A stretch of DNA of 63,806 nucleotides from assembly GCA_018819285.1 (NCBI GenBank), contig JAHJQM010000058.1, forward strand, positions 1 to 63,806, in the 5' to 3' direction. This DNA is from Candidatus Omnitrophota bacterium. Lineage in GTDB: Bacteria > Omnitrophota > Gorgyraeia > Gorgyraeales > Gorgyraeaceae. Positions 4,005 through 24,528 of this stretch are shown piece after piece (within the stretch, counting starts at the first letter, position 1; every line of letters starts with the position of its first letter). The translations under genes were made by a program, and so were the position numbers. Below the pieces are notes generated by a model. It saw only the letters and a list, made by a program, of their open reading frames with translations. It was not told the DNA's origin and searched no databases.

Positions 4005-4979
4005 TCATCTTGTAATATTAGTGTCAAGTAATGTCGCGTATTCTAAAGAAGTGGAGAATTTGAAGTCTTTTGTGATAGCGCGAAGTATATGGCTACATAT
4101 TTTTTGTTTGATTTTTAAAGGCAGGTTTAACCCGAACTGCCGTCTTATAGCATGGTCGCATATAGGATCTGAGAGTTCATTCGTATGAAATACCGTATTT
4201 AATGGCAGGGGAGTTATTTTAAGAAGGTTATATCCCATGTCAAACAACATAGAACCAAGGCCAAGATGATAAGCGGCAAATGTAAAACTTGCATGAAATG
4301 GCAGGCGCAGTAAAGGCATAGTTGTAATGGGCACTTCAATAATTTTCATCACACCTTTTTTCCATATGGCTTCGCTGGAAGGATGATAAGGAAACAAAGG
4401 CGCTAATCCATGCGAAAATTTTCCAAGATAATGATTTTTTTGAGGTATTTTTAAAGAAACAAATTTAAGCGTTTTAATTAATGAAGCATAATAAGTAGGA
4501 AGGAGAGATGAGTCATACACATAGCCTCTATCTTCTAATATTCCAAGGACCTCAATATCTACGTCGTTAGAAGGAGTCCTAAAACCTTTTGTGATAACGC
4601 CGAGTTCATTTTTTATTATATGCTCAGCTTCTTCTATTTCTTTTACTTTTTTATCAAATGACAGAAATGAAAAGCCTTCCGCATGATTCATGGTATGATT
4701 CGCTATTTCGTGCCCTCTATTGACAATATCCTTAAGCAGCTTTCTTCTAACAGGGAAGAGGAGGTCTTTCCCCACAACAAAGAAAGTGGCTTTTATTTGA
4801 TAAGAATCAAATAAATCAAGGAATCTTGGTATAGAAGATTCAAACATAGGATCTACTATGTTGTTATAATGATGCCCAAAATGCTGGAATATGACCCATA
4901 AACCATCAGTATCGATCTGAATAGTGCCTAATTTTATCATCCTGTCTATAAAGATATCTTTTTTTGCATAGTTAGTCAA
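4005..4979 (-). CDS. Polysaccharide deacetylase (NodB homology domain, CE4-like)
   Basis: TFFVVGKDL and HEIANHTMNH motifs typical of the NodB domain. The track start is TTG. An alternative ATG lies at 4940. Confidence 0.75.
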   Translation of the reverse strand: MTNYAKKDIFIDRMIKLGTIQIDTDGLWVIFQHFGHHYNNIVDPMFESSIPRFLDLFDSYQIKATFFVVGKDLLFPVRRKLLKDIVNRGHEIANHTMNHAEGFSFLSFDKKVKEIEEAEHIIKNELGVITKGFRTPSNDVDIEVLGILEDRGYVYDSSLLPTYYASLIKTLKFVSLKIPQKNHYLGKFSHGLAPLFPYHPSSEAIWKKGVMKIIEVPITTMPLLRLPFHASFTFAAYHLGLGSMLFDMGYNLLKITPLPLNTVFHTNELSDPICDHAIRRQFGLNLPLKIKQKICSHILRAITKDFKFSTSLEYATLLDTNITR

Positions 4980-17312: not shown

Positions 17313-17797
17313 AATATTTGATTATTGATGGTTATAATGCAATAAATAAAATCAAAGAATTTGACGCTAAAAAAGATATTAGCTTGGAGGCCTCGCGCTT
17401 GTCATTTATTAAAGCGTTGACGGATTTCAGACAAAGGAATCGCAAATTTAACAAGATAGTGGTTATTTTTGACGGTAAGGGCGATAGCCTTGGGTTGTCT
17501 GGAGAGACGTACGGAGATATAGAGGTTTTATTCTCAAACAAAGATAAAGACGCTGATAGGGTAATAGTTGATATACTTAAAATATCCTCGAAGGATAATA
17601 TAACAGTCTCTTCAGACGACAACTTTATAAAAAATCACACCAGGGCGTTTAGCTGCAATATAATAAGCATAAAAGAATTGGAGGATTTAATTGTCTTGAA
17701 GAAAAAATCGAAAGGCGTTAAAATAAAAGAAGATATTCAAGCAAAAGAGATGGATAAAATAACAGAAGAACTTAAAAGGCATTGGGGAGTTGAATGA
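17309..17797 (+). CDS. NYN/PIN-like domain protein (YacP/Rae1-like ribonuclease candidate)
   Basis: The LIIDGYNAINK N-terminus and FDGKGD...DADRVIVD pattern are typical of the YacP NYN family. ATGA overlap with the upstream gene. Confidence 0.65.
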   Translation: MKYLIIDGYNAINKIKEFDAKKDISLEASRLSFIKALTDFRQRNRKFNKIVVIFDGKGDSLGLSGETYGDIEVLFSNKDKDADRVIVDILKISSKDNITVSSDDNFIKNHTRAFSCNIISIKELEDLIVLKKKSKGVKIKEDIQAKEMDKITEELKRHWGVE

Positions 17798-17798
17798 C

Positions 17799-18563
17799 AT
17801 GGAAGAAAGAAATGAATTGAAGCCTGTTCATATAGAGGCATTTGATTTGGATGATGCGTGGTTCAGGTGCCTTTCAAAGATTTTAGAATGTGGTCACATA
17901 TATACAATCACAAGAGGCAGTTATCAAGGCCAGAAAAGGCTTGAATTTGATTTTGTTACTATCAGGATAAAAAATCCCAGCCATCAGATAATACCTATAA
18001 TACCGGAAGGTTCAAGTATCCCCGCTCCTACAAGCCTGGAATATATAAACGGTTATCTTTCTTATTTATTGACAGGCCAGAAAACAAATACAGAGGACTA
18101 TACCTATGGCGAAAGAATGGTGGATGCAAAGGTTAGGCTGAAGGAAACAGTCGAAGGCAAGGAAATGGTGCGAGAGATGCCTTTAGAGGTTAACCAGGTT
18201 GAAGAAGTTATAAAGATGTATAAAACTCAGGGCCATGGCACTAATCAGGCAACAATAGAAATAGGCATGCCTTCTGATATAAAGCTGAATGATCCGCCAT
18301 GTCTAAGGCTTATAGATACTAGGATTCGTTATGGGAAGCTACATTTTTTTCCGTATTTCAGGTCATGGGATTTATGGGGAGGCTTTCCTTCAAATTTAGG
18401 CGGTCTGGAGCTTGTAAAGCAATATATGGCAGAGGAAATCGGAGTCGGAAACGGTGAGATTATAGCTAGCAGCAAGGGGCTTCATCTTTACGAGTACTCT
18501 TGGGATTTTGCAAAACAGAGAACAGGCAATTTAAGACCTGGTCTTGAACACGATAAATCGTGA
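17799..18563 (+). CDS. thyA: Thymidylate synthase superfamily protein (divergent, archaeal-like ThyA)
   Basis: PPCLRLIDTRIRYGKLHFFPYFRSWDLWGGFPSNLGGLELV aligns by eye to the ThyA PPCH...GKL...RS.D...G.P.N block with the catalytic Cys. I prefer the ATG at 17799, preceded by GGGGAG, over the track's TTG at 17790. Confidence 0.65.
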   Translation: MEERNELKPVHIEAFDLDDAWFRCLSKILECGHIYTITRGSYQGQKRLEFDFVTIRIKNPSHQIIPIIPEGSSIPAPTSLEYINGYLSYLLTGQKTNTEDYTYGERMVDAKVRLKETVEGKEMVREMPLEVNQVEEVIKMYKTQGHGTNQATIEIGMPSDIKLNDPPCLRLIDTRIRYGKLHFFPYFRSWDLWGGFPSNLGGLELVKQYMAEEIGVGNGEIIASSKGLHLYEYSWDFAKQRTGNLRPGLEHDKS

Positions 18564-18586: not shown

Positions 18587-19303
18587 ATGCACCCTATAAT
18601 AGCTAAAATAGGACCTTTTACAATTTATAGCTATGGCATGATGGTCGCCATAGCTTTTTTATTAGGGGTATTTATCGCTAAACATGAGGCCATAAGAAAA
18701 GATATAAAGCCGGACCTTATGTATGACTTTAGTTTCTATCTTATTGTCGGCTCGATAATAGGCGCAAGGATTTATTATATCTTCTTTTTCGATCTCAAAG
18801 GGTTCTTAAACGACCCTGTATCTATATTTAAGGTGTGGCAGGGCGGGCTTTCAATACATGGCGGCATATTAGGTGGAGTAATAACAGGCCTTATATTTTC
18901 AAAGATTAGAAAAATATCTTTTTGGAAACTAGCTGATCTTATATCTCCTTCTATAATCCTGGGCCAGGCAGTAGGCCGGATAGGCTGTTTTTTAAACGGC
19001 TGTTGTTTCGGCATGCCGATGGAACCATTTTGTGGCATGAAAAATCATCCTACCCAGATTTATGAGCTTGTTTTAGATTTTATTGGGTTTTTGCTATTAT
19101 GGAATTTAAGGAAAAAGGTAAATTTTATTGGAGGATTATTTTTATTATATCTTATGATGTATAGCGTCATAAGGGTTATTGTTTCCAAGTTCAGGGCAGA
19201 CAATCTCTATCTATGGAATACAAACTTAACATTGGCGGATTTTACCAGCGTAACAATTTTCATAATAGCGTTGGTCTTATTTGTCAGAAAAAGACATGTT
19301 TAA
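18587..19303 (+). CDS. lgt: Prolipoprotein diacylglyceryl transferase
   Basis: GGLSIHGGILGG and GRIGCFLNGCCFG signature motifs. Polytopic membrane protein. Confidence 0.9.
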   Translation: MHPIIAKIGPFTIYSYGMMVAIAFLLGVFIAKHEAIRKDIKPDLMYDFSFYLIVGSIIGARIYYIFFFDLKGFLNDPVSIFKVWQGGLSIHGGILGGVITGLIFSKIRKISFWKLADLISPSIILGQAVGRIGCFLNGCCFGMPMEPFCGMKNHPTQIYELVLDFIGFLLLWNLRKKVNFIGGLFLLYLMMYSVIRVIVSKFRADNLYLWNTNLTLADFTSVTIFIIALVLFVRKRHV

Positions 19304-19478
19304 AAAGATAATTTTCAATATAGTAATAGTAATAATTTTAACGATGGTAGGCATTGCTATTATAAAAGCCAATAAACCAAAACATAACGCACTAAAAGCC
19401 AACCTGCATAATATAGAAACACCAAACTCAAATTTAAATCCAAAAGAGGCAAAATATTACAGGGTTATAGGAGAATGA
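19296..19478 (+). CDS. Small single-TM protein with C-terminal KEAKYYR motif (peptide 1 of pair)
   Basis: MFKKIIFNIVIVIILTMVGIAIIKANKPKHNALKANLHNIETPNSNLNPKEAKYYRVIGE. The ATG overlaps the lgt end, and the stop overlaps the amrS ATG (ATGA). The track starts it at TTG 19281. Confidence 0.55.
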   Translation: MFKKIIFNIVIVIILTMVGIAIIKANKPKHNALKANLHNIETPNSNLNPKEAKYYRVIGE

Positions 19479-20449
19479 AAAAGGTCAAATGTTTATTATG
19501 CCCCAGGGGCTGTGAATTAAAAGAGTTCGAGAGGGGCAATTGCAGATCCAGAATGAATATAGGCGGAAAGCTTCAGGCGCTTGCCTATGGGAAACCATGC
19601 GCAGTGCACGTGGATCCGATAGAGAAAAAACCTTTTTATCATTTTCTGCCAGGGACGTTATCTTTTTCATTGGCAACTGCTGGTTGCAATTTGCATTGTT
19701 TATATTGCCAGAACTGGGAGATATCGCAGTCTAACCCGGAAGATACTGTAAATGTGGACATGTCTCCAGAACAGGTTGTCCATGGAGCGATAGACAGTAA
19801 ATGCAGAACCATTGCCTGCACTTACTCAGAGCCTGTTATATTTTTTGAATATGCAGCTGATATAGCTAACATTGCGCATGAAAATAATATCCTGAATGTC
19901 TGGGTAACAGCGGGGTATATCAACCAGAAACCTTTAGAAGAGGCATGCAGTTTTCTAGATGCTATTAAGGTGGATTTTAAAGGCATAACAGAAGATTTTT
20001 ATCAGAATGTTACAAGGGCGAGTATCGGGCCTGTAATGAATGCGATAAAACTCATAAAGGAAAAAGGCGTGTGGCTGGAAATAGTGAATTTAATAGTGCC
20101 CACATACAATGATACTAAAGATGATTTTTCAAAACTCTGCGATTGGATAGTGGAAAACGTTGGACCTGATGTGCCAGTACATTTTTCAAAATTCTGGCCT
20201 ATATACCAGTTAAAAAATCTTCCACCTACGCCTGAAGAATCTCTGATTTTAGCTAGGAATATTGCCATATCTAAAGGCATAAACTATGCTTATATAGGAA
20301 ATATTCCAGAGCATGTCGGCAATAATACTTATTGTCCGGTTTGCAAGAAGCTGATTGTCGAAAGGCTTGGCTATACAGTTACGCAAAATAATATAACAGG
20401 CGGCAAATGTAAATTCTGCAGCAACAAAATCCCGGGTCGCTGGGACTAA
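19475..20449 (+). CDS. amrS: AmmeMemoRadiSam system radical SAM enzyme
   Basis: CNLHCLYCQNWEIS (CX3CX2C) and the N-terminal VKCLLCPRGCELKEFERGNCRSR motif typical of AmrS. Memo/AMMECR1 genes lie downstream. Confidence 0.85.
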   Translation: MKKVKCLLCPRGCELKEFERGNCRSRMNIGGKLQALAYGKPCAVHVDPIEKKPFYHFLPGTLSFSLATAGCNLHCLYCQNWEISQSNPEDTVNVDMSPEQVVHGAIDSKCRTIACTYSEPVIFFEYAADIANIAHENNILNVWVTAGYINQKPLEEACSFLDAIKVDFKGITEDFYQNVTRASIGPVMNAIKLIKEKGVWLEIVNLIVPTYNDTKDDFSKLCDWIVENVGPDVPVHFSKFWPIYQLKNLPPTPEESLILARNIAISKGINYAYIGNIPEHVGNNTYCPVCKKLIVERLGYTVTQNNITGGKCKFCSNKIPGRWD

Positions 20450-20488
20450 CTAAGTTGACACTCTGACATTGTCAGAGTGTCAACTTAG
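20450..20488. repeat. Intercistronic palindromic element, copy 2 (perfect)
   Basis: CTAAGTTGACACTCTGACATTGTCAGAGTGTCAACTTAG starts the base after the amrS TAA. Its 3' end runs into the AGAGGGGG RBS. Confidence 0.9.
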
Positions 20489-20498
20489 AGGGGGCATT

Positions 20499-20645
20499 GT
20501 GGATAAGAATATGACACGCAAGGAGTTTTTAAAGATGGCGGGGTTTGCGGTATTTGCAATTTTTATTCTGCCCGGCGTAAAGAAATTGAATTTATTTAGA
20601 AAATCTCATAAAGAAGCAAAATATTATAAAAAACTGGCAGGGTAA
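20499..20645 (+). CDS. Small single-TM protein with Tat-like TRKEFLK N-region and C-terminal KEAKYYK motif (peptide 2 of pair)
   Basis: Below the ORF-track cutoff, so I translated it by hand: (GTG)MDKNMTRKEFLKMAGFAVFAIFILPGVKKLNLFRKSHKEAKYYKKLAG*. An AGAGGGGG SD lies upstream of the GTG at 20499. An in-frame ATG lies at 20511. Confidence 0.5.
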   Translation: MDKNMTRKEFLKMAGFAVFAIFILPGVKKLNLFRKSHKEAKYYKKLAG

Positions 20646-20656
20646 AATAAGATACA

Positions 20657-22150
20657 ATGGGCAAGGTTATGGGTATAAAAAATATATTTATTTTAATGCT
20701 TTTTATGTTTCTACTTTCTTGCAATAAATCTTATTCTGAGGATATAAGAAAGCCAGCTGTAGCTGGAGCGTTTTATCCAGGAAATAAGGAAGAACTTACT
20801 AGAAAAGTGGATAATTTTTTAGCGAACGCTGAAAAATCTGATATAAAAGGCAAAATTCTTGCTCTTATTGCACCGCACGCAGGCTATGATTATTCTGGCC
20901 AAATTGCCGCCTATAGTTTTAAACAACTGGAGGGCACAAATTTTAAAAAGATAATCATAATCTCTCCAAGCCATTATGTTGGATTTGACGGCATGTCTAT
21001 TTACAATAAAGGCTCATTTGAAACACCGCTTGGCCTTGTAAAGATAGATGAGGAACTCGCCAATAAAATAATGCAGAAAAATAAACGGTTTATTTTTTAT
21101 CCAGAAGCTCATAAGAAAGAACATGCTATTGAAGTGGAACTGCCATTTTTGCAAAGGATATATAAGGATAAGGATTTCAAGATAGTCCCTATTACCATGG
21201 GAAATCCTGAATCTGAGGATATAATGATATTGAGCGATGCGCTTTATGATGCAATGGATAAGGATACGCTTTTAATTGTAAGCGTGGACCTGTCTCATTA
21301 TTATCCTTACGATAAAGCAGTTAAATTAGATACAAATTCTACCAGTGCTATTGAACAATTAGATGCGCAAAAGATGACAGAAGATATCAATAGCCATAAT
21401 TCAGAAATAGACGCACCAATAGCTGTTTTAGGGATGATCACGCTTGCCAATAGGTATAATGCAAAAGCAAAAATTATAAGATATGCAAATTCAGGCGATG
21501 TGACAGGGGATAAATCAAGGGTAGTGGGTTATTCAAGCATTGTTGTATATATTCCTAGTGATTTACAGGAAAAGGGGGATATGATAATGAAGGATGAATA
21601 TTTAAGCAAAGAAGAAAAGGCAAAGCTATTGGAGATCGCAAAGTTCTCAATAATAGAAGCCGTGACTGGAAAAAGGCAGTTTTTGCCAAATGTAACAGAG
21701 GAAAGATTAAAAGAAAACTGCGGGGCTTTTGTGACTATAAAAGAAAATAACCAGCTTCGCGGATGCATTGGTTATATACAGGCTGTAAAGCCGCTTTATG
21801 AAACAGTAAAAGATGTCGCTAAGTCAGCTGCAGTGAATGATTACAGGTTTAGTCCTGTGGGCCAGGATGAACTAGATAAGTTAGAATTAGAAATATCTGT
21901 CCTTACGCCTCTTAAGAAGATAAAGGATATAAGCGAGATCGAAGTCGGGAGACACGGCCTTGTGATAAAACAGGGATTTAATTCAGGGCTTTTACTGCCA
22001 CAGGTAGCTACAGAGTACAATTGGGATAGGGATACCTTTTTACAGCAGACTTGTAGAAAAGCAGGCCTTAGCCATGACGCATGGAAGGATAAAGCTACAG
22101 AAATATATATATTCAGTGCAGAGGTTTTTGGGGAAGAGAAAAAGCAGTAA
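20657..22150 (+). CDS. Fusion of AmmeMemoRadiSam protein B (Memo-like) and protein A (AMMECR1 domain) with lipoprotein-type signal peptide
   Basis: The N-terminal MGKVMGIKNIFILMLFMFLLSCNKS has a lipobox-like LLSC. IRKPAVAGAFYPG and APHAGYDYSG are Memo motifs. The C-terminal half has GAFVTIKENNQLRGCIGY, the AMMECR1 motif. Confidence 0.85.
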   Translation: MGKVMGIKNIFILMLFMFLLSCNKSYSEDIRKPAVAGAFYPGNKEELTRKVDNFLANAEKSDIKGKILALIAPHAGYDYSGQIAAYSFKQLEGTNFKKIIIISPSHYVGFDGMSIYNKGSFETPLGLVKIDEELANKIMQKNKRFIFYPEAHKKEHAIEVELPFLQRIYKDKDFKIVPITMGNPESEDIMILSDALYDAMDKDTLLIVSVDLSHYYPYDKAVKLDTNSTSAIEQLDAQKMTEDINSHNSEIDAPIAVLGMITLANRYNAKAKIIRYANSGDVTGDKSRVVGYSSIVVYIPSDLQEKGDMIMKDEYLSKEEKAKLLEIAKFSIIEAVTGKRQFLPNVTEERLKENCGAFVTIKENNQLRGCIGYIQAVKPLYETVKDVAKSAAVNDYRFSPVGQDELDKLELEISVLTPLKKIKDISEIEVGRHGLVIKQGFNSGLLLPQVATEYNWDRDTFLQQTCRKAGLSHDAWKDKATEIYIFSAEVFGEEKKQ

Positions 22151-22254: not shown

Positions 22255-24528
22255 TCACATCTTTTGAATAAAACAAGGCCTGGAATTAGAAAGTAATATA
22301 AAAATAAAGATATTTATAACGCTTAAAAATACGCATGTCTGAAGAATTCCTATTATAGGTATAAGTATTATGCCTATAACTAACCCACCTATACATGAAC
22401 CAAATAAATCAATGCCGTATAAAAGGCCTGTTGTCTTTCCAATATCTTTGGAGTCTTTAAGCCAGATTTTATTTGCAAGCGGAAACTGAAACCCTCCTAT
22501 AAAACCGCTAATAACAGGCATTATTACAAAGACTATCTGAAGCATATTTCCTATGCCAGGCTTTATCTGGTTTATTTTTACTATAGCCACAAGACTTATT
22601 GCAAGTATCAATGGATAAATAGATAGCCAGGCTTGGGTTTTTATATAAAGCTTTCTATCGTCTTCTATTCTTTCTATAATGCGTGTAATCAAAAAACTTC
22701 CGAGCGTCAATCCTATCATAAATGAAGTAAGAATAAATCCTATCTGATAATACATATAGCCGTATATAAACTGGAACGCAAGTATAATGATAATCTGGAA
22801 ACATATTTGGCTCATGCCGGTTCCAGCCATAGATATTAAAACCGGAAATTTTAAAGAAGCCATGGTTAATTTTTGCGCTAATAGGGTTATTAACAAAAGG
22901 GCGAATGCTATCAATATGAAAATGCCTAGATTAATATTATCAATATACGGAAGGAGGTTTCTTGTAGCATCAAAAAAACTTATCCAAAGAATCGCGTGGT
23001 AAAGATAACCGATGGGCTTAAAATCAGTATTTATTTTCGTATTTTTAAATTTTTGAATAGCGCTTTCCACATATTTGATTCTCAATGGGTCTAATTTAAA
23101 AGGCAGATAATATTCCCTGACAAATTTAGTTTTGATATTTCTTTCCTTAAGCCTTTTTATCAGCGTATTTGCATCCTCTGTAAGTATTCCAGGCGTTTGC
23201 GATGCAATAAATGTAATCGTATCACCTGGGAGAAGCCTTATATCATTAAATTCTCTTTTAAGAGTGTTATAGATGCAGCTTAAATATACGGCATTTTCAG
23301 GGCTTATATAATTCTCAGAAGAGAGGAGGCCAAAAGAAAATATTCCGGTTGGTTCCAATATTTGTTTTACCTCTTTGAAAAATTCCAGGGAATAAAATCT
23401 ATTAAGGTTTGCATTGTAAGGGTCAGGAAGATTTAATATTATCACATCATATTTATACGGCGTAGCAGGGTTTTTTATTGCACTAGCTTCTTTTACAAAA
23501 AGCCTGCCATCCATGTGTATTATATTTACCCTGTTATCTTTTAAGGGAGGGAGGTATCTTTGAGAAAGACTTATTATTAAAGGGTCCAATTCTACATAAT
23601 CAATCCTATCGACTTTATATTTTAAAATCTGATCAATGGAGCCTCCTACACCCCCTCCTATTAAGAGGATTTTTTTAGGCCCTGGGTGCTCTAACATTGC
23701 GTAATGAACTGATTCCTCGCTGGTTGACGTGTCGCCTCCTGTAAACATCAGCGTGCCGTTTTCGTAGAAGCTGTACTGATTTCCTAATTTTGTCACAGTA
23801 ATATTCCCGTATATAGAATCTGCATTTTCTATGAGCTTGAGAGGCTTTACCTGAAGAGACCTTGTAAACCCATCTATATGTTTTGGCCAATTGAACATGA
23901 TTGTAGTTGAAAATATTACGAGGTATATCAGCTGTACTATATTTCTAGAGAATAAGATAGATGTGATTAAATTCAGATTTCCCAGGATAAGGGCATTTTG
24001 AAAACTCGTATATGTTTTTATAAGTAAAAATGCGTATATGAGACCGCCGATAGAAGCTCCCAGACCTTCTAATAAATAAATCCTTCCCACCTGTTTATGC
24101 GCCAGGTGGTTGTCTTTTGCGGCAATCTTTGATATCAATATAAAAATGAGGCCTAATAATGCGCAGACAAGGGATAAAGATACAAAGGATGAACCCAGCA
24201 TTTGAGTTAGTCCAATGATTTTTCCTGCCGGGATTTTTAATATGGATTTGATGAGCCGGATGAAAAATATATTTAGAGGAATAAGTATGGATAAAGCAAG
24301 CTGTAAATACGATAAGAGTTTTTCCTTAAAGGGGATGAAATCTACAAGCCTGCCCAGAACAAGGCTTCCGAAAGCTACCCAGAAAAGCCATGAGGCGAGT
24401 ATGATGCCTAAAGACAGCTCATTGCCATAGAATACTACGATAAGCTCTCTTATAATAATTATCTGGCCTATCATTGAGGTAAGGCCGAGTATAAAAGCGC
24501 TGATGTTTAATTTTAAATTTATCTTCAT
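22255..24528 (-). CDS. Membrane-embedded spermidine synthase-like (aminopropyltransferase fold) protein
   Basis: 757 aa. An N-terminal multi-TM block, a central SpeE-like domain (ILLIGGGVGGSIDQILKY, YVELDP, DVIILNLPDP) and a C-terminal multi-TM block. Confidence 0.75.
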   Translation of the reverse strand: MKINLKLNISAFILGLTSMIGQIIIIRELIVVFYGNELSLGIILASWLFWVAFGSLVLGRLVDFIPFKEKLLSYLQLALSILIPLNIFFIRLIKSILKIPAGKIIGLTQMLGSSFVSLSLVCALLGLIFILISKIAAKDNHLAHKQVGRIYLLEGLGASIGGLIYAFLLIKTYTSFQNALILGNLNLITSILFSRNIVQLIYLVIFSTTIMFNWPKHIDGFTRSLQVKPLKLIENADSIYGNITVTKLGNQYSFYENGTLMFTGGDTSTSEESVHYAMLEHPGPKKILLIGGGVGGSIDQILKYKVDRIDYVELDPLIISLSQRYLPPLKDNRVNIIHMDGRLFVKEASAIKNPATPYKYDVIILNLPDPYNANLNRFYSLEFFKEVKQILEPTGIFSFGLLSSENYISPENAVYLSCIYNTLKREFNDIRLLPGDTITFIASQTPGILTEDANTLIKRLKERNIKTKFVREYYLPFKLDPLRIKYVESAIQKFKNTKINTDFKPIGYLYHAILWISFFDATRNLLPYIDNINLGIFILIAFALLLITLLAQKLTMASLKFPVLISMAGTGMSQICFQIIIILAFQFIYGYMYYQIGFILTSFMIGLTLGSFLITRIIERIEDDRKLYIKTQAWLSIYPLILAISLVAIVKINQIKPGIGNMLQIVFVIMPVISGFIGGFQFPLANKIWLKDSKDIGKTTGLLYGIDLFGSCIGGLVIGIILIPIIGILQTCVFLSVINIFIFILLSNSRPCFIQKM

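What the first reader, a model, noticed from the sequence alone, without database searches (positions are those of the whole stretch)
19296..20645. Two paralogous single-TM peptides with a shared C-terminal KEAKYY[RK] motif bracket the AmmeMemoRadiSam radical SAM gene
- Peptide 1 (19296-19478) ends ...NLNPKEAKYYRVIGE.
- Peptide 2 (20499-20645) is below the ORF-track cutoff, so I translated it by hand. It ends ...RKSHKEAKYYKKLAG.
- The motif is encoded by nearly the same 17-nt string. It reads AAAGAGGCAAAATATTA at 19443-19459 and AAAGAAGCAAAATATTA at 20610-20626.
- Both peptides have one N-terminal hydrophobic helix followed by a very basic tail.
- Peptide 1 is translationally coupled to lgt upstream and to amrS downstream through an ATGA overlap.
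- Peptide 2 lies between amrS and the amrB-amrA fusion. It carries TRKEFLK, which resembles the twin-arginine S/T-R-R-x-F-L-K motif with RK in place of RR.
- To my knowledge the substrate of the widespread AmrA/AmrB/AmrS system is not established.
- A duplicated small peptide with a conserved Tyr-Tyr tail inside the operon is a plausible substrate or partner. Its basic tail would be predicted cytoplasmic by the positive-inside rule and so accessible to the radical SAM enzyme.
Basis: partly seen in the sequence, partly recalled or inferred. Interest (0 to 1): 0.72.

Follow-up and report, generated by a model that had tools for sequence, protein, structure and literature searches.

The report
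Detached targeting heads of AmrS enzyme
The two small peptides are real, conserved genes, but their shared KEAKYY tail is the radical SAM enzyme's own missing N-terminal segment, split off onto a membrane anchor and a Tat-type export signal, so they are probably targeting partners of the enzyme and not its substrates.

Summary
Both small ORFs exist at the stated coordinates and share KEAKYY. Both are conserved under purifying selection in dozens of Omnitrophota assemblies, always flanking amrS.

The substrate reading does not hold. The motif is positions 1-10 of the curated AmrS model, TIGR04337. The window's AmrS ORF matches that model only from position 11. Adding either peptide tail in silico restores a match from position 1. 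Archaeal AmrS begins MKEA[LS]YYKKLK..V.C.LCP. In 39 of 40 Chloroflexota loci and in eight other bacterial loci (Desulfobacteraceae, Planctomycetota, Phycisphaerales, Caldisericota, Armatimonadia, one unclassified), the same segment is fused to the enzyme behind a twin-arginine signal.

- **Peptide 1** plus AmrS is therefore a split full-length enzyme, colinear to the residue.
- **Peptide 2** is a second copy of the N-terminal module that carries the Tat-type signal. It ends at the same junction.
- It belongs to a family of about 150 clusters of mini Tat proteins. Every genomic context I examined puts them beside this radical SAM gene.

Most likely the tails dock onto AmrS in trans and give it a membrane anchor or a Tat signal. 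This is inferred, not shown.

Related observations suggest the system may act outside the cytoplasm. AmrB-AmrA is a predicted lipoprotein. Relatives carry a NapH-like gene with an extracytosolic flavin domain. In one genome, peptide 1's tail is fused to that flavin domain.

The parts
18587..19303 (+). lgt (prolipoprotein diacylglyceryl transferase). It is the upstream neighbour and its stop overlaps the peptide 1 start by 8 nt.
   Evidence: TIGR00544 176 bits and PF01790 232 bits. Adjacency to peptide 1 holds only in this clade. In L089 a NapH-like gene sits between lgt and peptide 1.
19296..19478 (+). Peptide 1 (60 aa). It has an N-terminal single transmembrane anchor, a variable linker and the tail ..NPKEAKYYRVIGE. 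It is read as the detached N-terminal module of AmrS.
   Evidence: 34 homologue clusters. It lies upstream of amrS in every split locus whose contig covers that position except L042; its stop overlaps the amrS start or lies up to 4 nt before it. pN/pS is 0.35. Tail plus AmrS matches TIGR04337 from profile position 1.
19443..19460 (+). Codons for KEAKYY in peptide 1. From the Ala onward they correspond to the start of the TIGR04337 profile.
19475..20449 (+). amrS, the AmmeMemoRadiSam radical SAM enzyme. This ORF is core only. It starts at MKKVKCLLCP and lacks the family's N-terminal segment.
   Evidence: TIGR04337 375.5 bits, residues 3-324 on profile 11-334 of 349. CNLHCLYC radical SAM motif.
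20450..20488 (.). A 39-nt perfect palindrome (arms 20450-20468 and 20470-20488) directly after the amrS stop. It abuts the peptide 2 Shine-Dalgarno sequence GAGGGGG (20488-20494).
   Evidence: Sequence. Predicted RNA hairpin of -29.7 kcal/mol. Unrelated strong hairpins sit at the same position in other genomes. Function not established.
20499..20645 (+). Peptide 2 (48 aa from GTG). It has a Tat-type signal (RK variant), a hydrophobic region, a basic linker and the tail ..HKEAKYYKKLAG. It is read as a second copy of the AmrS N-terminal module that ends at the same junction.
   Evidence: 152 clusters at E<=1e-3 among 1.84 billion representatives. It lies downstream of the radical SAM gene in every context examined. 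Tail plus AmrS matches TIGR04337 from profile position 1 at 383.0 bits.
20514..20534 (+). TRKEFLK, the twin-arginine-like motif of peptide 2.
   Evidence: R and F are invariant across the family. RR occurs in 99 of 132 representatives and RK in 19. TIGR01409 hits 40 of 112 members and PF10518 hits 42 of 112. The window copy itself gives no TIGR01409 hit.
20610..20627 (+). Codons for KEAKYY in peptide 2.
20657..22150 (+). amrB-amrA fusion (Memo plus AMMECR1 domains). It carries an N-terminal lipoprotein signal, MGKVMGIKNIFILMLFMFLLSC (20657-20722).
   Evidence: TIGR04336 275 bits and TIGR04335 191 bits. A lipobox Cys is present in the N-termini of 14 of 15 Omnitrophota-type orthologues and 23 of 23 Chloroflexota AmrB.
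22255..24528 (-). Convergent 757-aa polytopic membrane protein with a spermine-synthase-like domain. It is a conserved neighbour of peptide 2.
   Evidence: PF01564 88.5 bits. The same neighbour is present in most loci where the flank is available. In L091 it is fused to an FMN_bind domain and a peptide 1-like tail.

Best explanation
Peptides 1 and 2 are detached N-terminal modules of the radical SAM enzyme AmrS. They arose by gene fission, and the module exists in two copies.

In most lineages AmrS is one polypeptide. Its first ten or so residues read (K)EA-x-[YF]Y-x-K-L-x-G, followed by the Cys-rich core (K-x-V-x-C-x-L-C-P). In many bacteria a twin-arginine signal precedes this segment.

In Omnitrophota, and in TA06- and Elusimicrobia-type relatives, the amrS ORF starts at the core. 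The conserved segment is encoded separately in two places:
- **Peptide 1**, directly upstream and colinear, carries it behind a plain membrane anchor.
- **Peptide 2**, downstream, carries it behind a Tat-type signal and ends at exactly the same junction.

Proposed mechanism: each tail docks non-covalently onto the AmrS core in place of the missing N-terminal segment. The soluble Fe-S enzyme thereby gains a membrane tether from peptide 1. It also gains, in trans, a Tat signal from peptide 2, for hitchhiker-type export or for a Tat-inserted anchor.

What is shown:
- The motif is homologous to the AmrS N-terminus.
- This AmrS ORF is truncated.
- The split is colinear with full-length AmrS and both peptides end at the same junction.
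- Full-length homologues carry Tat signals.
- Both peptides are under purifying selection.
- The linkage is strict.

What is inferred: the physical docking, the targeting role, and which side of the membrane the complex ends on.
For: **The motif is the enzyme's own N-terminus.**
1. The window AmrS matches TIGR04337 only from profile position 11 (375.5 bits). The chimera KSHKEAKYYKKLAG plus AmrS matches positions 1-334 starting at the Ala of EAKYY (383.0 bits). NLNPKEAKYYRVIGE plus AmrS does the same (382.0 bits).
2. Unsplit homologues carry the motif in cis.
   - Archaeal: MKEASYYKKLKNKIVQCQLCP, MEQKEALYYEKLREKIVRCKLCP.
   - Desulfobacteraceae: MKTTRRELLK...YPEAKYYKKLSGKRVQCTLCP, where profile position 1 is the Ala of EAKYY.
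   - Armatimonadia..GLSSQEALYYKQLSGGSVKCLLCP.
3. Compare the window: peptide 2 ends ..EAKYYKKLAG*, peptide 1 ends ..EAKYYRVIGE*, and AmrS starts MKKVKCLLCP.

**Split and fused forms are mutually exclusive.**
4. All 18 Omnitrophota-labelled loci and 3 loci with other labels have core-only AmrS. 39 of 40 Chloroflexota loci and 8 other bacterial loci have Tat-fused AmrS. All 7 archaeal loci are unsplit and have no signal.
5. A peptide 2 profile finds free small ORFs only in split loci. In Chloroflexota it instead hits the N-termini of the AmrS ORFs (E from 5e-6 to 1e-3). It also hits peptide 1 of L088 at 4e-5.
6. Five of ten fused N-termini pass the TIGR01409 cut-off, scoring 16.8-27.4 against 16.7.

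**Linkage and selection.**
7. Peptide 1 - rSAM - peptide 2 is kept even where amrB/amrA are absent from the locus and in TA06 and Elusimicrobia contigs.
8. Both peptides show purifying selection and synonymous variation inside the motif.
9. In Elusimicrobia L091 a peptide 1-like tail (..IKKLIREGYLPDKESMFYRKPEK*) is fused to the C-terminus of an FMN_bind domain protein. The stop of that gene overlaps the rSAM start.
Against: - No physical evidence exists for a complex.
- Peptide 2 lies downstream of amrS, which a simple fission does not explain. A duplication must be assumed.
- If both tails bind the same site, they compete. Why two modules are kept is unexplained.
- In the window's clade the motif is RK, not RR, and the tail is very basic. 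That fits a cytoplasmic tail better than export.
- No tatA or tatC gene is present in the 64-kb window, which is uninformative.
- The peptide 1 orientation predicted from flanking charges differs between lineages.
- L036 has peptide 1 but no peptide 2 at the locus. L065 has only a peptide 1-like ORF.
Confidence: 0.72

Rival explanations
1. The peptides are ribosomally made substrates of AmrS. The Tyr-Tyr tail would be modified by the radical SAM enzyme, and then by Memo/AMMECR1, as with PqqA or MftA.
For: - Linkage to a radical SAM gene is tight, and the aromatic pair near the C-terminus is conserved.
- A Tat signal on a roughly 50-aa peptide would suit modification in the cytoplasm before export.
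- Kaur et al. 2020 (PMC7159879) link Memo-AMMECR1-type radical SAM domains to peptide-processing systems by computation.
- MEMO1 binds a phosphotyrosine peptide in its active-site pocket (PMC7694686).
Against: - The motif is homologous to the enzyme's own N-terminal segment and is missing from the enzyme exactly where the peptides exist.
- Full-length AmrS loci have no such peptides.
- AmrS shows no SPASM or recognition domain, only PF04055 and PF13353. Omnitrophota AmrS has the same length as the core of homologues that lack peptides.
- The aromatic pair in peptide 1 drifts to YW, HW and even HL.
- Peptide 1 is translationally coupled to amrS, which is the pattern of a subunit.
Confidence: 0.08
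2. Peptide 1 and amrS are translated as one protein through a programmed frameshift at the ATGA overlap. Under this reading there is no real split.
For: The two ORFs are colinear with full-length AmrS and overlap by 4 nt. The amrS frame stays open for some codons upstream.
Against: - The stop codon and a separate start are kept in all split loci.
- The relative frame differs between lineages: +2 in the window, +1 in L015 and L017.
- The overlap varies from a 4-nt gap to 8 nt.
- No slippery heptamer precedes the stop in the peptide 1 frame.
- Peptide 2 cannot be explained this way.
Confidence: 0.04
3. The small ORFs are decaying leftovers of a gene rearrangement and have no function.
For: They are short, unannotated or labelled 'hypothetical', and match no Pfam or NCBIfam family apart from the generic Tat signal.
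Against: - They are conserved across AmrS divergence down to about 53% identity and in at least three candidate phyla.
- pN/pS is 0.26-0.35.
- A, Y and the terminal G are invariant or nearly so (Y at 90% or more).
- The family has 152 clusters at 50% identity.
Confidence: 0.03
4. The shared 17-nt string is a non-coding regulatory repeat.
For: 16 of 17 nt are identical within 1.2 kb, against 0.04 matches expected by chance.
Against: Orthologues keep the amino acids while changing the codons synonymously. The near-identity follows from identical residues and AT-rich codon use.
Confidence: 0.01

Closest known systems
Full-length AmmeMemoRadiSam radical SAM enzymes (TIGR04337), including the Tat-signal forms found here in Chloroflexota, Desulfobacteraceae, Planctomycetota, Caldisericota and Armatimonadia
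   Same: They share the same N-terminal segment (EA-x-[YF]Y-x-K-L-x-G), the same junction to the Cys-rich core, and the same core. The window core is 36-58% identical to that of the unsplit forms.
   Different: Here the enzyme is split. The segment sits on two separate mini-proteins, and the core ORF starts at profile position 11.
Hitchhiker Tat export, where a signal-less partner is carried by a signal-bearing subunit. Examples from my own knowledge: [NiFe] hydrogenase small and large subunits, and DmsA/DmsB in E. coli.
   Same: A protein bearing a Tat signal is encoded next to a signal-less Fe-S enzyme. Homologues of that enzyme carry the signal in cis.
   Different: The carrier here is only about 48 aa: a signal plus a docking segment of roughly ten residues. 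It is not a folded subunit. Export is inferred, not shown. The window copy has RK in place of RR.
TIGR02811, 'formate dehydrogenase region TAT target' (FdhX-type mini Tat proteins)
   Same: Proteins of 70 aa or fewer with a Tat signal, a short conserved tail containing [YF]Y, and a redox enzyme next door. 18 of 112 family members give weak hits, the best at E = 1.4e-6.
   Different: The members and fused N-termini I examined individually score 13-19 bits against a cut-off of 48.45, mostly over the signal. The window peptide gives no hit. There is no formate dehydrogenase nearby. The tail motif I recall for TIGR02811 (Y-[HRK]-x-[TS]-x-H-[IV]-x-x-[YF]-Y) is not kept in this family.
Peptide precursors of radical SAM-made cofactors (PqqA, MftA; from my own knowledge)
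   Same: A small ORF beside a radical SAM gene with a conserved Tyr near the C-terminus.
   Different: Those peptides are not homologous to part of their enzyme. Their enzymes carry SPASM or recognition domains. They have no membrane anchor or Tat signal.
NapH-like flavinylated extracytosolic electron-transfer systems (Méheust et al. 2021, PMC8238504)
   Same: Relatives of this operon begin with a protein that has an N-terminal FMN_bind domain, PF12801 membrane Fe-S motifs and a C-terminal ferredoxin.
   Different: That paper does not mention radical SAM, Memo or spermine synthase partners. The window itself lacks the NapH-like gene.

Membership tests
TIGR04337 AmmeMemoRadiSam radical SAM enzyme (amrS ORF) | Whole-protein HMM score above the curated cut-off of 220 bits | tested here: met
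   375.5 bits.
TIGR04337 AmmeMemoRadiSam radical SAM enzyme (amrS ORF) | Full-length match that includes the N-terminal segment, profile positions 1-10 | tested here: not met
   The ORF matches profile positions 11-334 only. Positions 1-10 are matched once either peptide tail is prepended.
TIGR04337 AmmeMemoRadiSam radical SAM enzyme (amrS ORF) | Neighbourhood containing AmrB (Memo, TIGR04336) and AmrA (AMMECR1, TIGR04335) | tested here: met
   A fused amrB-amrA lies at 20657-22150. It is absent from the locus in the deeper split clade.
Twin-arginine (Tat) signal peptide (TIGR01409 / PF10518), peptide 2 | S/T-R-R-x-F-L-K motif and an HMM score above cut-off | tested here: inconclusive
   The window copy has T-R-K-E-F-L-K and gives no TIGR01409 hit. 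99 of 132 family representatives have RR. 40 of 112 hit TIGR01409 at E <= 0.1. RR orthologues score 17.4-17.9 against a cut-off of 16.7.
Twin-arginine (Tat) signal peptide (TIGR01409 / PF10518), peptide 2 | Tat machinery present and export dependent on Tat | not testable with these tools
   No tatA or tatC homologue is present in the 64-kb window, and the rest of the genome was not available.
TIGR02811 formate dehydrogenase region TAT target | HMM score above the cut-off of 48.45 bits | tested here: not met
   The window peptide gives no hit at E <= 10. Ten family members examined individually score 13-16 bits and a fused AmrS N-terminus scores 19. The best E among the 112 members is 1.4e-6.
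TIGR02811 formate dehydrogenase region TAT target | Located next to formate dehydrogenase genes | tested here: not met
   Neighbours are lgt, amrS, amrB-amrA and a spermine-synthase-like gene.
Radical SAM-modified precursor peptide (RiPP or cofactor precursor) | Partner enzyme carries a SPASM or peptide-recognition domain | tested here: not met
   Only PF04055 and PF13353 are found on AmrS.
Radical SAM-modified precursor peptide (RiPP or cofactor precursor) | Covalent modification of the peptide that depends on the enzyme | not testable with these tools
   This needs mass spectrometry after co-expression.
Hitchhiker Tat cargo/carrier pair | A signal-bearing protein and a signal-less partner are encoded together, and homologues of the partner carry the signal in cis | tested here: met
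   Tat-fused AmrS in 47 loci; peptide 2 beside core-only AmrS.
Hitchhiker Tat cargo/carrier pair | Stable complex formed before export, followed by co-translocation | not testable with these tools
The family has no solved structure.
Bacterial lipoprotein (AmrB-AmrA) | Signal peptide ending in a lipobox with an invariant Cys | tested here: met
   ..FMFLLSC in the window. A lipobox Cys (e.g. LSC, CSC, AAC or AGC) is present in 14 of 15 Omnitrophota-type and 23 of 23 Chloroflexota AmrB N-termini. No dedicated predictor was run.

The most novel reading that the evidence does not exclude
In these lineages the whole AmmeMemoRadiSam system may work outside the cytoplasmic membrane. It would consist of:
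- a radical SAM enzyme exported by Tat, with the signal in cis in Chloroflexota and several other bacterial lineages and supplied in trans by peptide 2 in Omnitrophota;
- a tether next to the lipoproteins AmrB(-AmrA);
- reduction by a NapH-like protein through its extracytosolic flavin domain;
- the conserved membrane protein with a SAM-binding (spermine-synthase-like) domain as a possible source of the cofactor.

This would be extracytoplasmic radical SAM chemistry, and it would place the unknown substrate of Memo/AMMECR1 in the cell envelope.
Probability: 0.35. Interest if true: 0.9.

Novelty: new variant of a known kind. Interest (0 to 1): 0.66.

Why it matters
- **A candidate substrate is removed.** The function of the AmrS/AmrB/AmrA (radical SAM / Memo / AMMECR1) trio is not established in the literature I could search. 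This result takes away a tempting candidate substrate.
- **It gives a clue to location.** The enzyme's conserved N-terminus is wired to Tat signals, lipoboxes and membrane anchors in at least eight bacterial lineages. The Memo partner is a predicted lipoprotein. The problem becomes testable by localisation, by Tat dependence and by looking for envelope substrates.
- **The split is unusual.** A Tat signal plus a docking segment of about ten residues, encoded as its own gene, would be a minimal trans-acting export tag.
- **It defines a family.** About 150 clusters of 'hypothetical' mini-proteins now have a context.
- **It flags an annotation problem.** In these genomes the AmrS ORF is incomplete on its own.

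Tried and rejected
- **Pfam and NCBIfam scans of both peptides.** Nothing matched beyond the generic Tat signal, apart from weak NF038009 and DsrO hits over the signal.
- **Profile-profile comparison of the two peptide families.** Only 10 columns aligned, at 68% probability. That alone could not decide whether they are homologous.
- **Searching for YY-tailed small ORFs next to amrS in other phyla.** None were found as free ORFs. This first looked like lineage restriction, until the motif turned up inside the AmrS ORFs.
- **Literature searches.** AmmeMemoRadiSam, AMMECR1 plus radical SAM, and exported or periplasmic radical SAM gave no functional study. Burroughs et al. 2019 could not be opened. 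My recollection that it links Memo to nucleotide-base and isoprenoid modification is from memory only.
- **PDB search.** It returned only the pyruvate formate-lyase activase core and no AmrS structure.
- **A 324-aa ORF at 4005-4979 (-).** It looked like a possible second amrS but is unrelated.
- **tatA/tatC and NapH-like genes in the window.** None found, which is uninformative for a 64-kb piece.
- **Resemblance to the ErbB2 peptide bound by MEMO1.** I recall the sequence around the tyrosine as ..NLYYW.. . I considered it as a lead for Memo binding the tails. I kept it only as a remark because the homology to the AmrS N-terminus explains the motif.


Full report
**1. The observation**

- Peptide 1 (19296-19478, 60 aa) reads MFKKIIFNIVIVIILTMVGIAIIKANKPKHNALKANLHNIETPNSNLNPKEAKYYRVIGE.
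- Its start overlaps the lgt stop by 8 nt. Its stop overlaps the amrS start in an ATGA.
- Peptide 2 (20499-20645, 48 aa from GTG) reads VDKNMTRKEFLKMAGFAVFAIFILPGVKKLNLFRKSHKEAKYYKKLAG.
- It follows a Shine-Dalgarno sequence, GAGGGGG.
- The 17-mer AAAGARGCAAAATATTA occurs only at these two places in the window. Shuffles give 0.04 matches on average.
- NCBIfam and Pfam confirm the neighbours: lgt, amrS (TIGR04337, 375.5 bits) and a fused amrB-amrA (TIGR04336 plus TIGR04335).

**2. The peptides are real genes**

- Searches of 5.8 billion proteins found 34 homologue clusters for peptide 1 and 12 for peptide 2. All are short and all named ones come from Omnitrophota. E-A-[KR]-Y-Y is invariant.
- The order lgt - peptide 1 - amrS - peptide 2 - amrB/A - (convergent) spermine-synthase-like gene recurs on independent contigs.
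- Across orthologues the motif codons change synonymously while the residues stay.
- Differences concentrate at third codon positions.
- pN/pS is 0.35 for peptide 1, 0.26 for peptide 2 and 0.14 for amrS in the same genomes.
- This rules out a nucleotide-level repeat and decaying ORFs.

**3. A wider look at the neighbourhood**

I fetched 80 amrS loci from one genome per species.
- Omnitrophota with AmrS only 53-56% identical to the window's still have a TM-anchored peptide ending next to the amrS start. Its tail reads ..GL.LHPAKYW...
- In most of them a Tat-type peptide follows amrS, for example MDRRHFLK...KEALYYRSPDSLAG. No amrB or amrA lies within 4 kb.
- Upstream sits a protein with FMN_bind, PF12801 and ferredoxin domains (NapH-like). 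Downstream, convergent, sits the same spermine-synthase-like membrane protein.
- L089 carries everything in one operon.

A profile of peptide 2 finds 129 clusters in the word-indexed search. It finds 152 clusters at E <= 1e-3 among 1.84 billion representatives, nearly all 44-85 aa and matched end to end.
- 99 of 132 have RR and 19 have RK.
- The tail is E-A-x-[YFH]-Y ... L-[AP]-G, with a C-terminal Gly in all 112 aligned members.
- Members occur in contigs labelled Elusimicrobia and candidate division TA06.
- In all three additional contexts the peptide lies downstream of the same radical SAM gene, directly after it in two and after an intervening CutA1 gene in the third.
- No curated family covers the tail.

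**4. The key result**

The peptide 2 profile gave weak hits inside the AmrS ORFs of Chloroflexota. I then extended every AmrS ORF upstream.
- 39 of 40 Chloroflexota loci have AmrS with an N-terminal extension. So do Desulfobacteraceae, Planctomycetota, Phycisphaerales, Caldisericota, Armatimonadia and one unclassified bacterium.
- The extension consists of a twin-arginine signal, a linker and then the same motif. Examples are MKTTRRELLK...YPEAKYYKKLSGKRVQCTLCP and ...GLSSQEALYYKQLSGGSVKCLLCP.
- Archaeal AmrS has no signal and begins MKEASYYKKLKNKIVQCQLCP.
- Five of ten fused N-termini pass the TIGR01409 cut-off.

A direct test followed.
- The window AmrS alone aligns to TIGR04337 profile positions 11-334.
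- With the peptide 2 tail prepended, the alignment starts at profile position 1, on the Ala of EAKYY. The score rises from 375.5 to 383.0 bits.
- The peptide 1 tail behaves the same way (382.0 bits).
- In the Desulfobacteraceae protein, profile position 1 is again the Ala of EAKYY.

KEAKYY is therefore the conserved N-terminal segment of the AmrS family. It is missing from this amrS ORF and is encoded on the two peptides. Peptide 1 plus AmrS is colinear with full-length AmrS: EAKYY-RVIGE* / MKKVKC against EAKYY-KKLSG-KRVQC. Peptide 2 ends at the same junction (..YYKKLAG*).

**5. Distribution**

- All 18 Omnitrophota-labelled loci, and three loci with other labels, have core-only AmrS.
- A peptide 1-type ORF ends at, or within a few nucleotides of, the amrS start wherever the contig reaches that position, except in L042.
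- Free peptide 2 ORFs are found only in split loci.
- A rough neighbour-joining tree places most split forms in one clade beside the Tat-fused Chloroflexota. Two split forms (L065, L091) branch elsewhere. The tree has no support values.
- The relative reading frame and the overlap between peptide 1 and amrS vary among lineages. This argues against a programmed frameshift.

**6. How it most likely works**

- The tails dock onto the AmrS core in trans, in place of the missing N-terminal segment.
- Peptide 1 would then act as a membrane tether.
- Peptide 2 would supply a Tat signal in trans.
- The homology, the truncation, the shared junction, the Tat signals on full-length relatives, the purifying selection and the strict linkage are shown. 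The docking and the targeting are inferred.

The side of the membrane is open. Several points favour an extracytoplasmic location:
- RR signals in most family members.
- Tat signals on full-length AmrS, often followed by a Cys in a lipobox-like position.
- AmrB-AmrA has a lipoprotein signal here and in all but one Omnitrophota-type orthologue examined, and AmrB has one in Chloroflexota.
- The N-terminal FMN_bind domain of NapH-like proteins is extracytosolic according to Méheust et al. 2021 (PMC8238504). The expected signal-anchor and flavinylation-type motif are present.
- In L091 a peptide 1-like tail is fused directly after an FMN_bind domain with no intervening TM helix.

Other points favour a tether on the cytoplasmic face in the window's own clade:
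- RR has become RK.
- The peptide 2 tail is very basic.
- A radical SAM enzyme needs SAM and a low-potential reductant.

**7. Comparison with what is known**

- The closest relatives are full-length TIGR04337 enzymes.
- The nearest mechanistic analogy is hitchhiker Tat export. This rests on my own knowledge of the hydrogenase and DmsAB cases.
Neither its cut-off nor its formate dehydrogenase context is met.
- The analogy to RiPP or cofactor precursors fails on two counts. The enzyme has no SPASM or recognition domain. More importantly, the 'core' motif belongs to the enzyme itself.
- I found no paper on the function of the prokaryotic system, nor on exported radical SAM enzymes. Balaji and Aravind 2007 (PMC2034487) proposed an RNA base modification from gene context alone.

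**8. Verdict**

- The substrate interpretation is not supported.
- 'Partner' and 'Tat-like' are supported.
- The feature is a gene fission that separates the targeting head of a radical SAM enzyme from its body, with the head present in two versions.
- It is a new variant of known kinds: split genes and trans-acting Tat targeting.
- Its main value is the pointer it gives to where the AmmeMemoRadiSam system may act.

Noticed in passing
window 20657-20722; L001-L016, L088, L089; Chloroflexota loci such as L018, L024, L035, L054: The AmrB-AmrA fusion begins with a lipoprotein-type signal (..FMFLLSC). A lipobox Cys is present in 14 of 15 Omnitrophota-type orthologues examined. AmrB next to Tat-fused AmrS in Chloroflexota also has a lipobox, followed by Pro/Thr-rich linkers. 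The Memo partner therefore looks extracytoplasmic.
   Followed up: partly
window 20450-20488: A 39-nt perfect palindrome sits directly after the amrS stop and touches the peptide 2 ribosome-binding site (predicted hairpin -29.7 kcal/mol). Other genomes have unrelated but equally strong hairpins at the same position, up to -128 kcal/mol. Several genomes have no spacer at all.
   Followed up: partly
window 22255-24528 (-); L091 2070-5042: A 757-aa polytopic membrane protein with a spermine-synthase-like domain lies convergent to peptide 2 in most loci where the flank is available. In an Elusimicrobia contig it is fused to an FMN_bind domain and a peptide 1-like tail, which links it functionally to the module.
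   Followed up: partly
L089 3577-4743; L019 2621-3811; L028, L042, L087, L092: Relatives carry a NapH-like gene (extracytosolic FMN_bind, PF12801 membrane Fe-S motifs, usually a C-terminal ferredoxin) immediately upstream of peptide 1. The window has no such gene anywhere in its 64 kb.
   Followed up: partly
Chloroflexota loci, e.g. L052 3764-4966, L038, L018: Tat-fused AmrS proteins have an insert of about 30 aa between the EAxYY segment and the core. The insert contains C-x-x-C-H and Y-C-H motifs. It resembles a haem c site but could equally be a metal-cluster ligand set.
   Followed up: no
window 20499 versus 20511: The gene call held in the protein collection for peptide 2 starts at ATG 20511 (44 aa). 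Orthologues with Ile at that position, and the position of the ribosome-binding site, support GTG 20499 (48 aa). The TTG at 20469 listed by the ORF tool lies inside the palindrome.
   Followed up: yes
window 17790-18563: The gene upstream of lgt matches the archaeal-type thymidylate synthase model TIGR03283 at 104 bits, below its cut-off of 174.55. The block HAD hydrolase - NYN/YacP - this gene - lgt is syntenic across the close Omnitrophota contigs.
   Followed up: no
L036 1355-1580; L065 3720-4969: There are two exceptions to the two-peptide rule. L036 (Omnitrophota) has peptide 1 but neither peptide 2 nor the spermine-synthase-like gene at the locus. L065 (unclassified bacterium) has only a peptide 1-like ORF, whose tail reads ..EPARHLKI with no aromatic pair.
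   Followed up: partly
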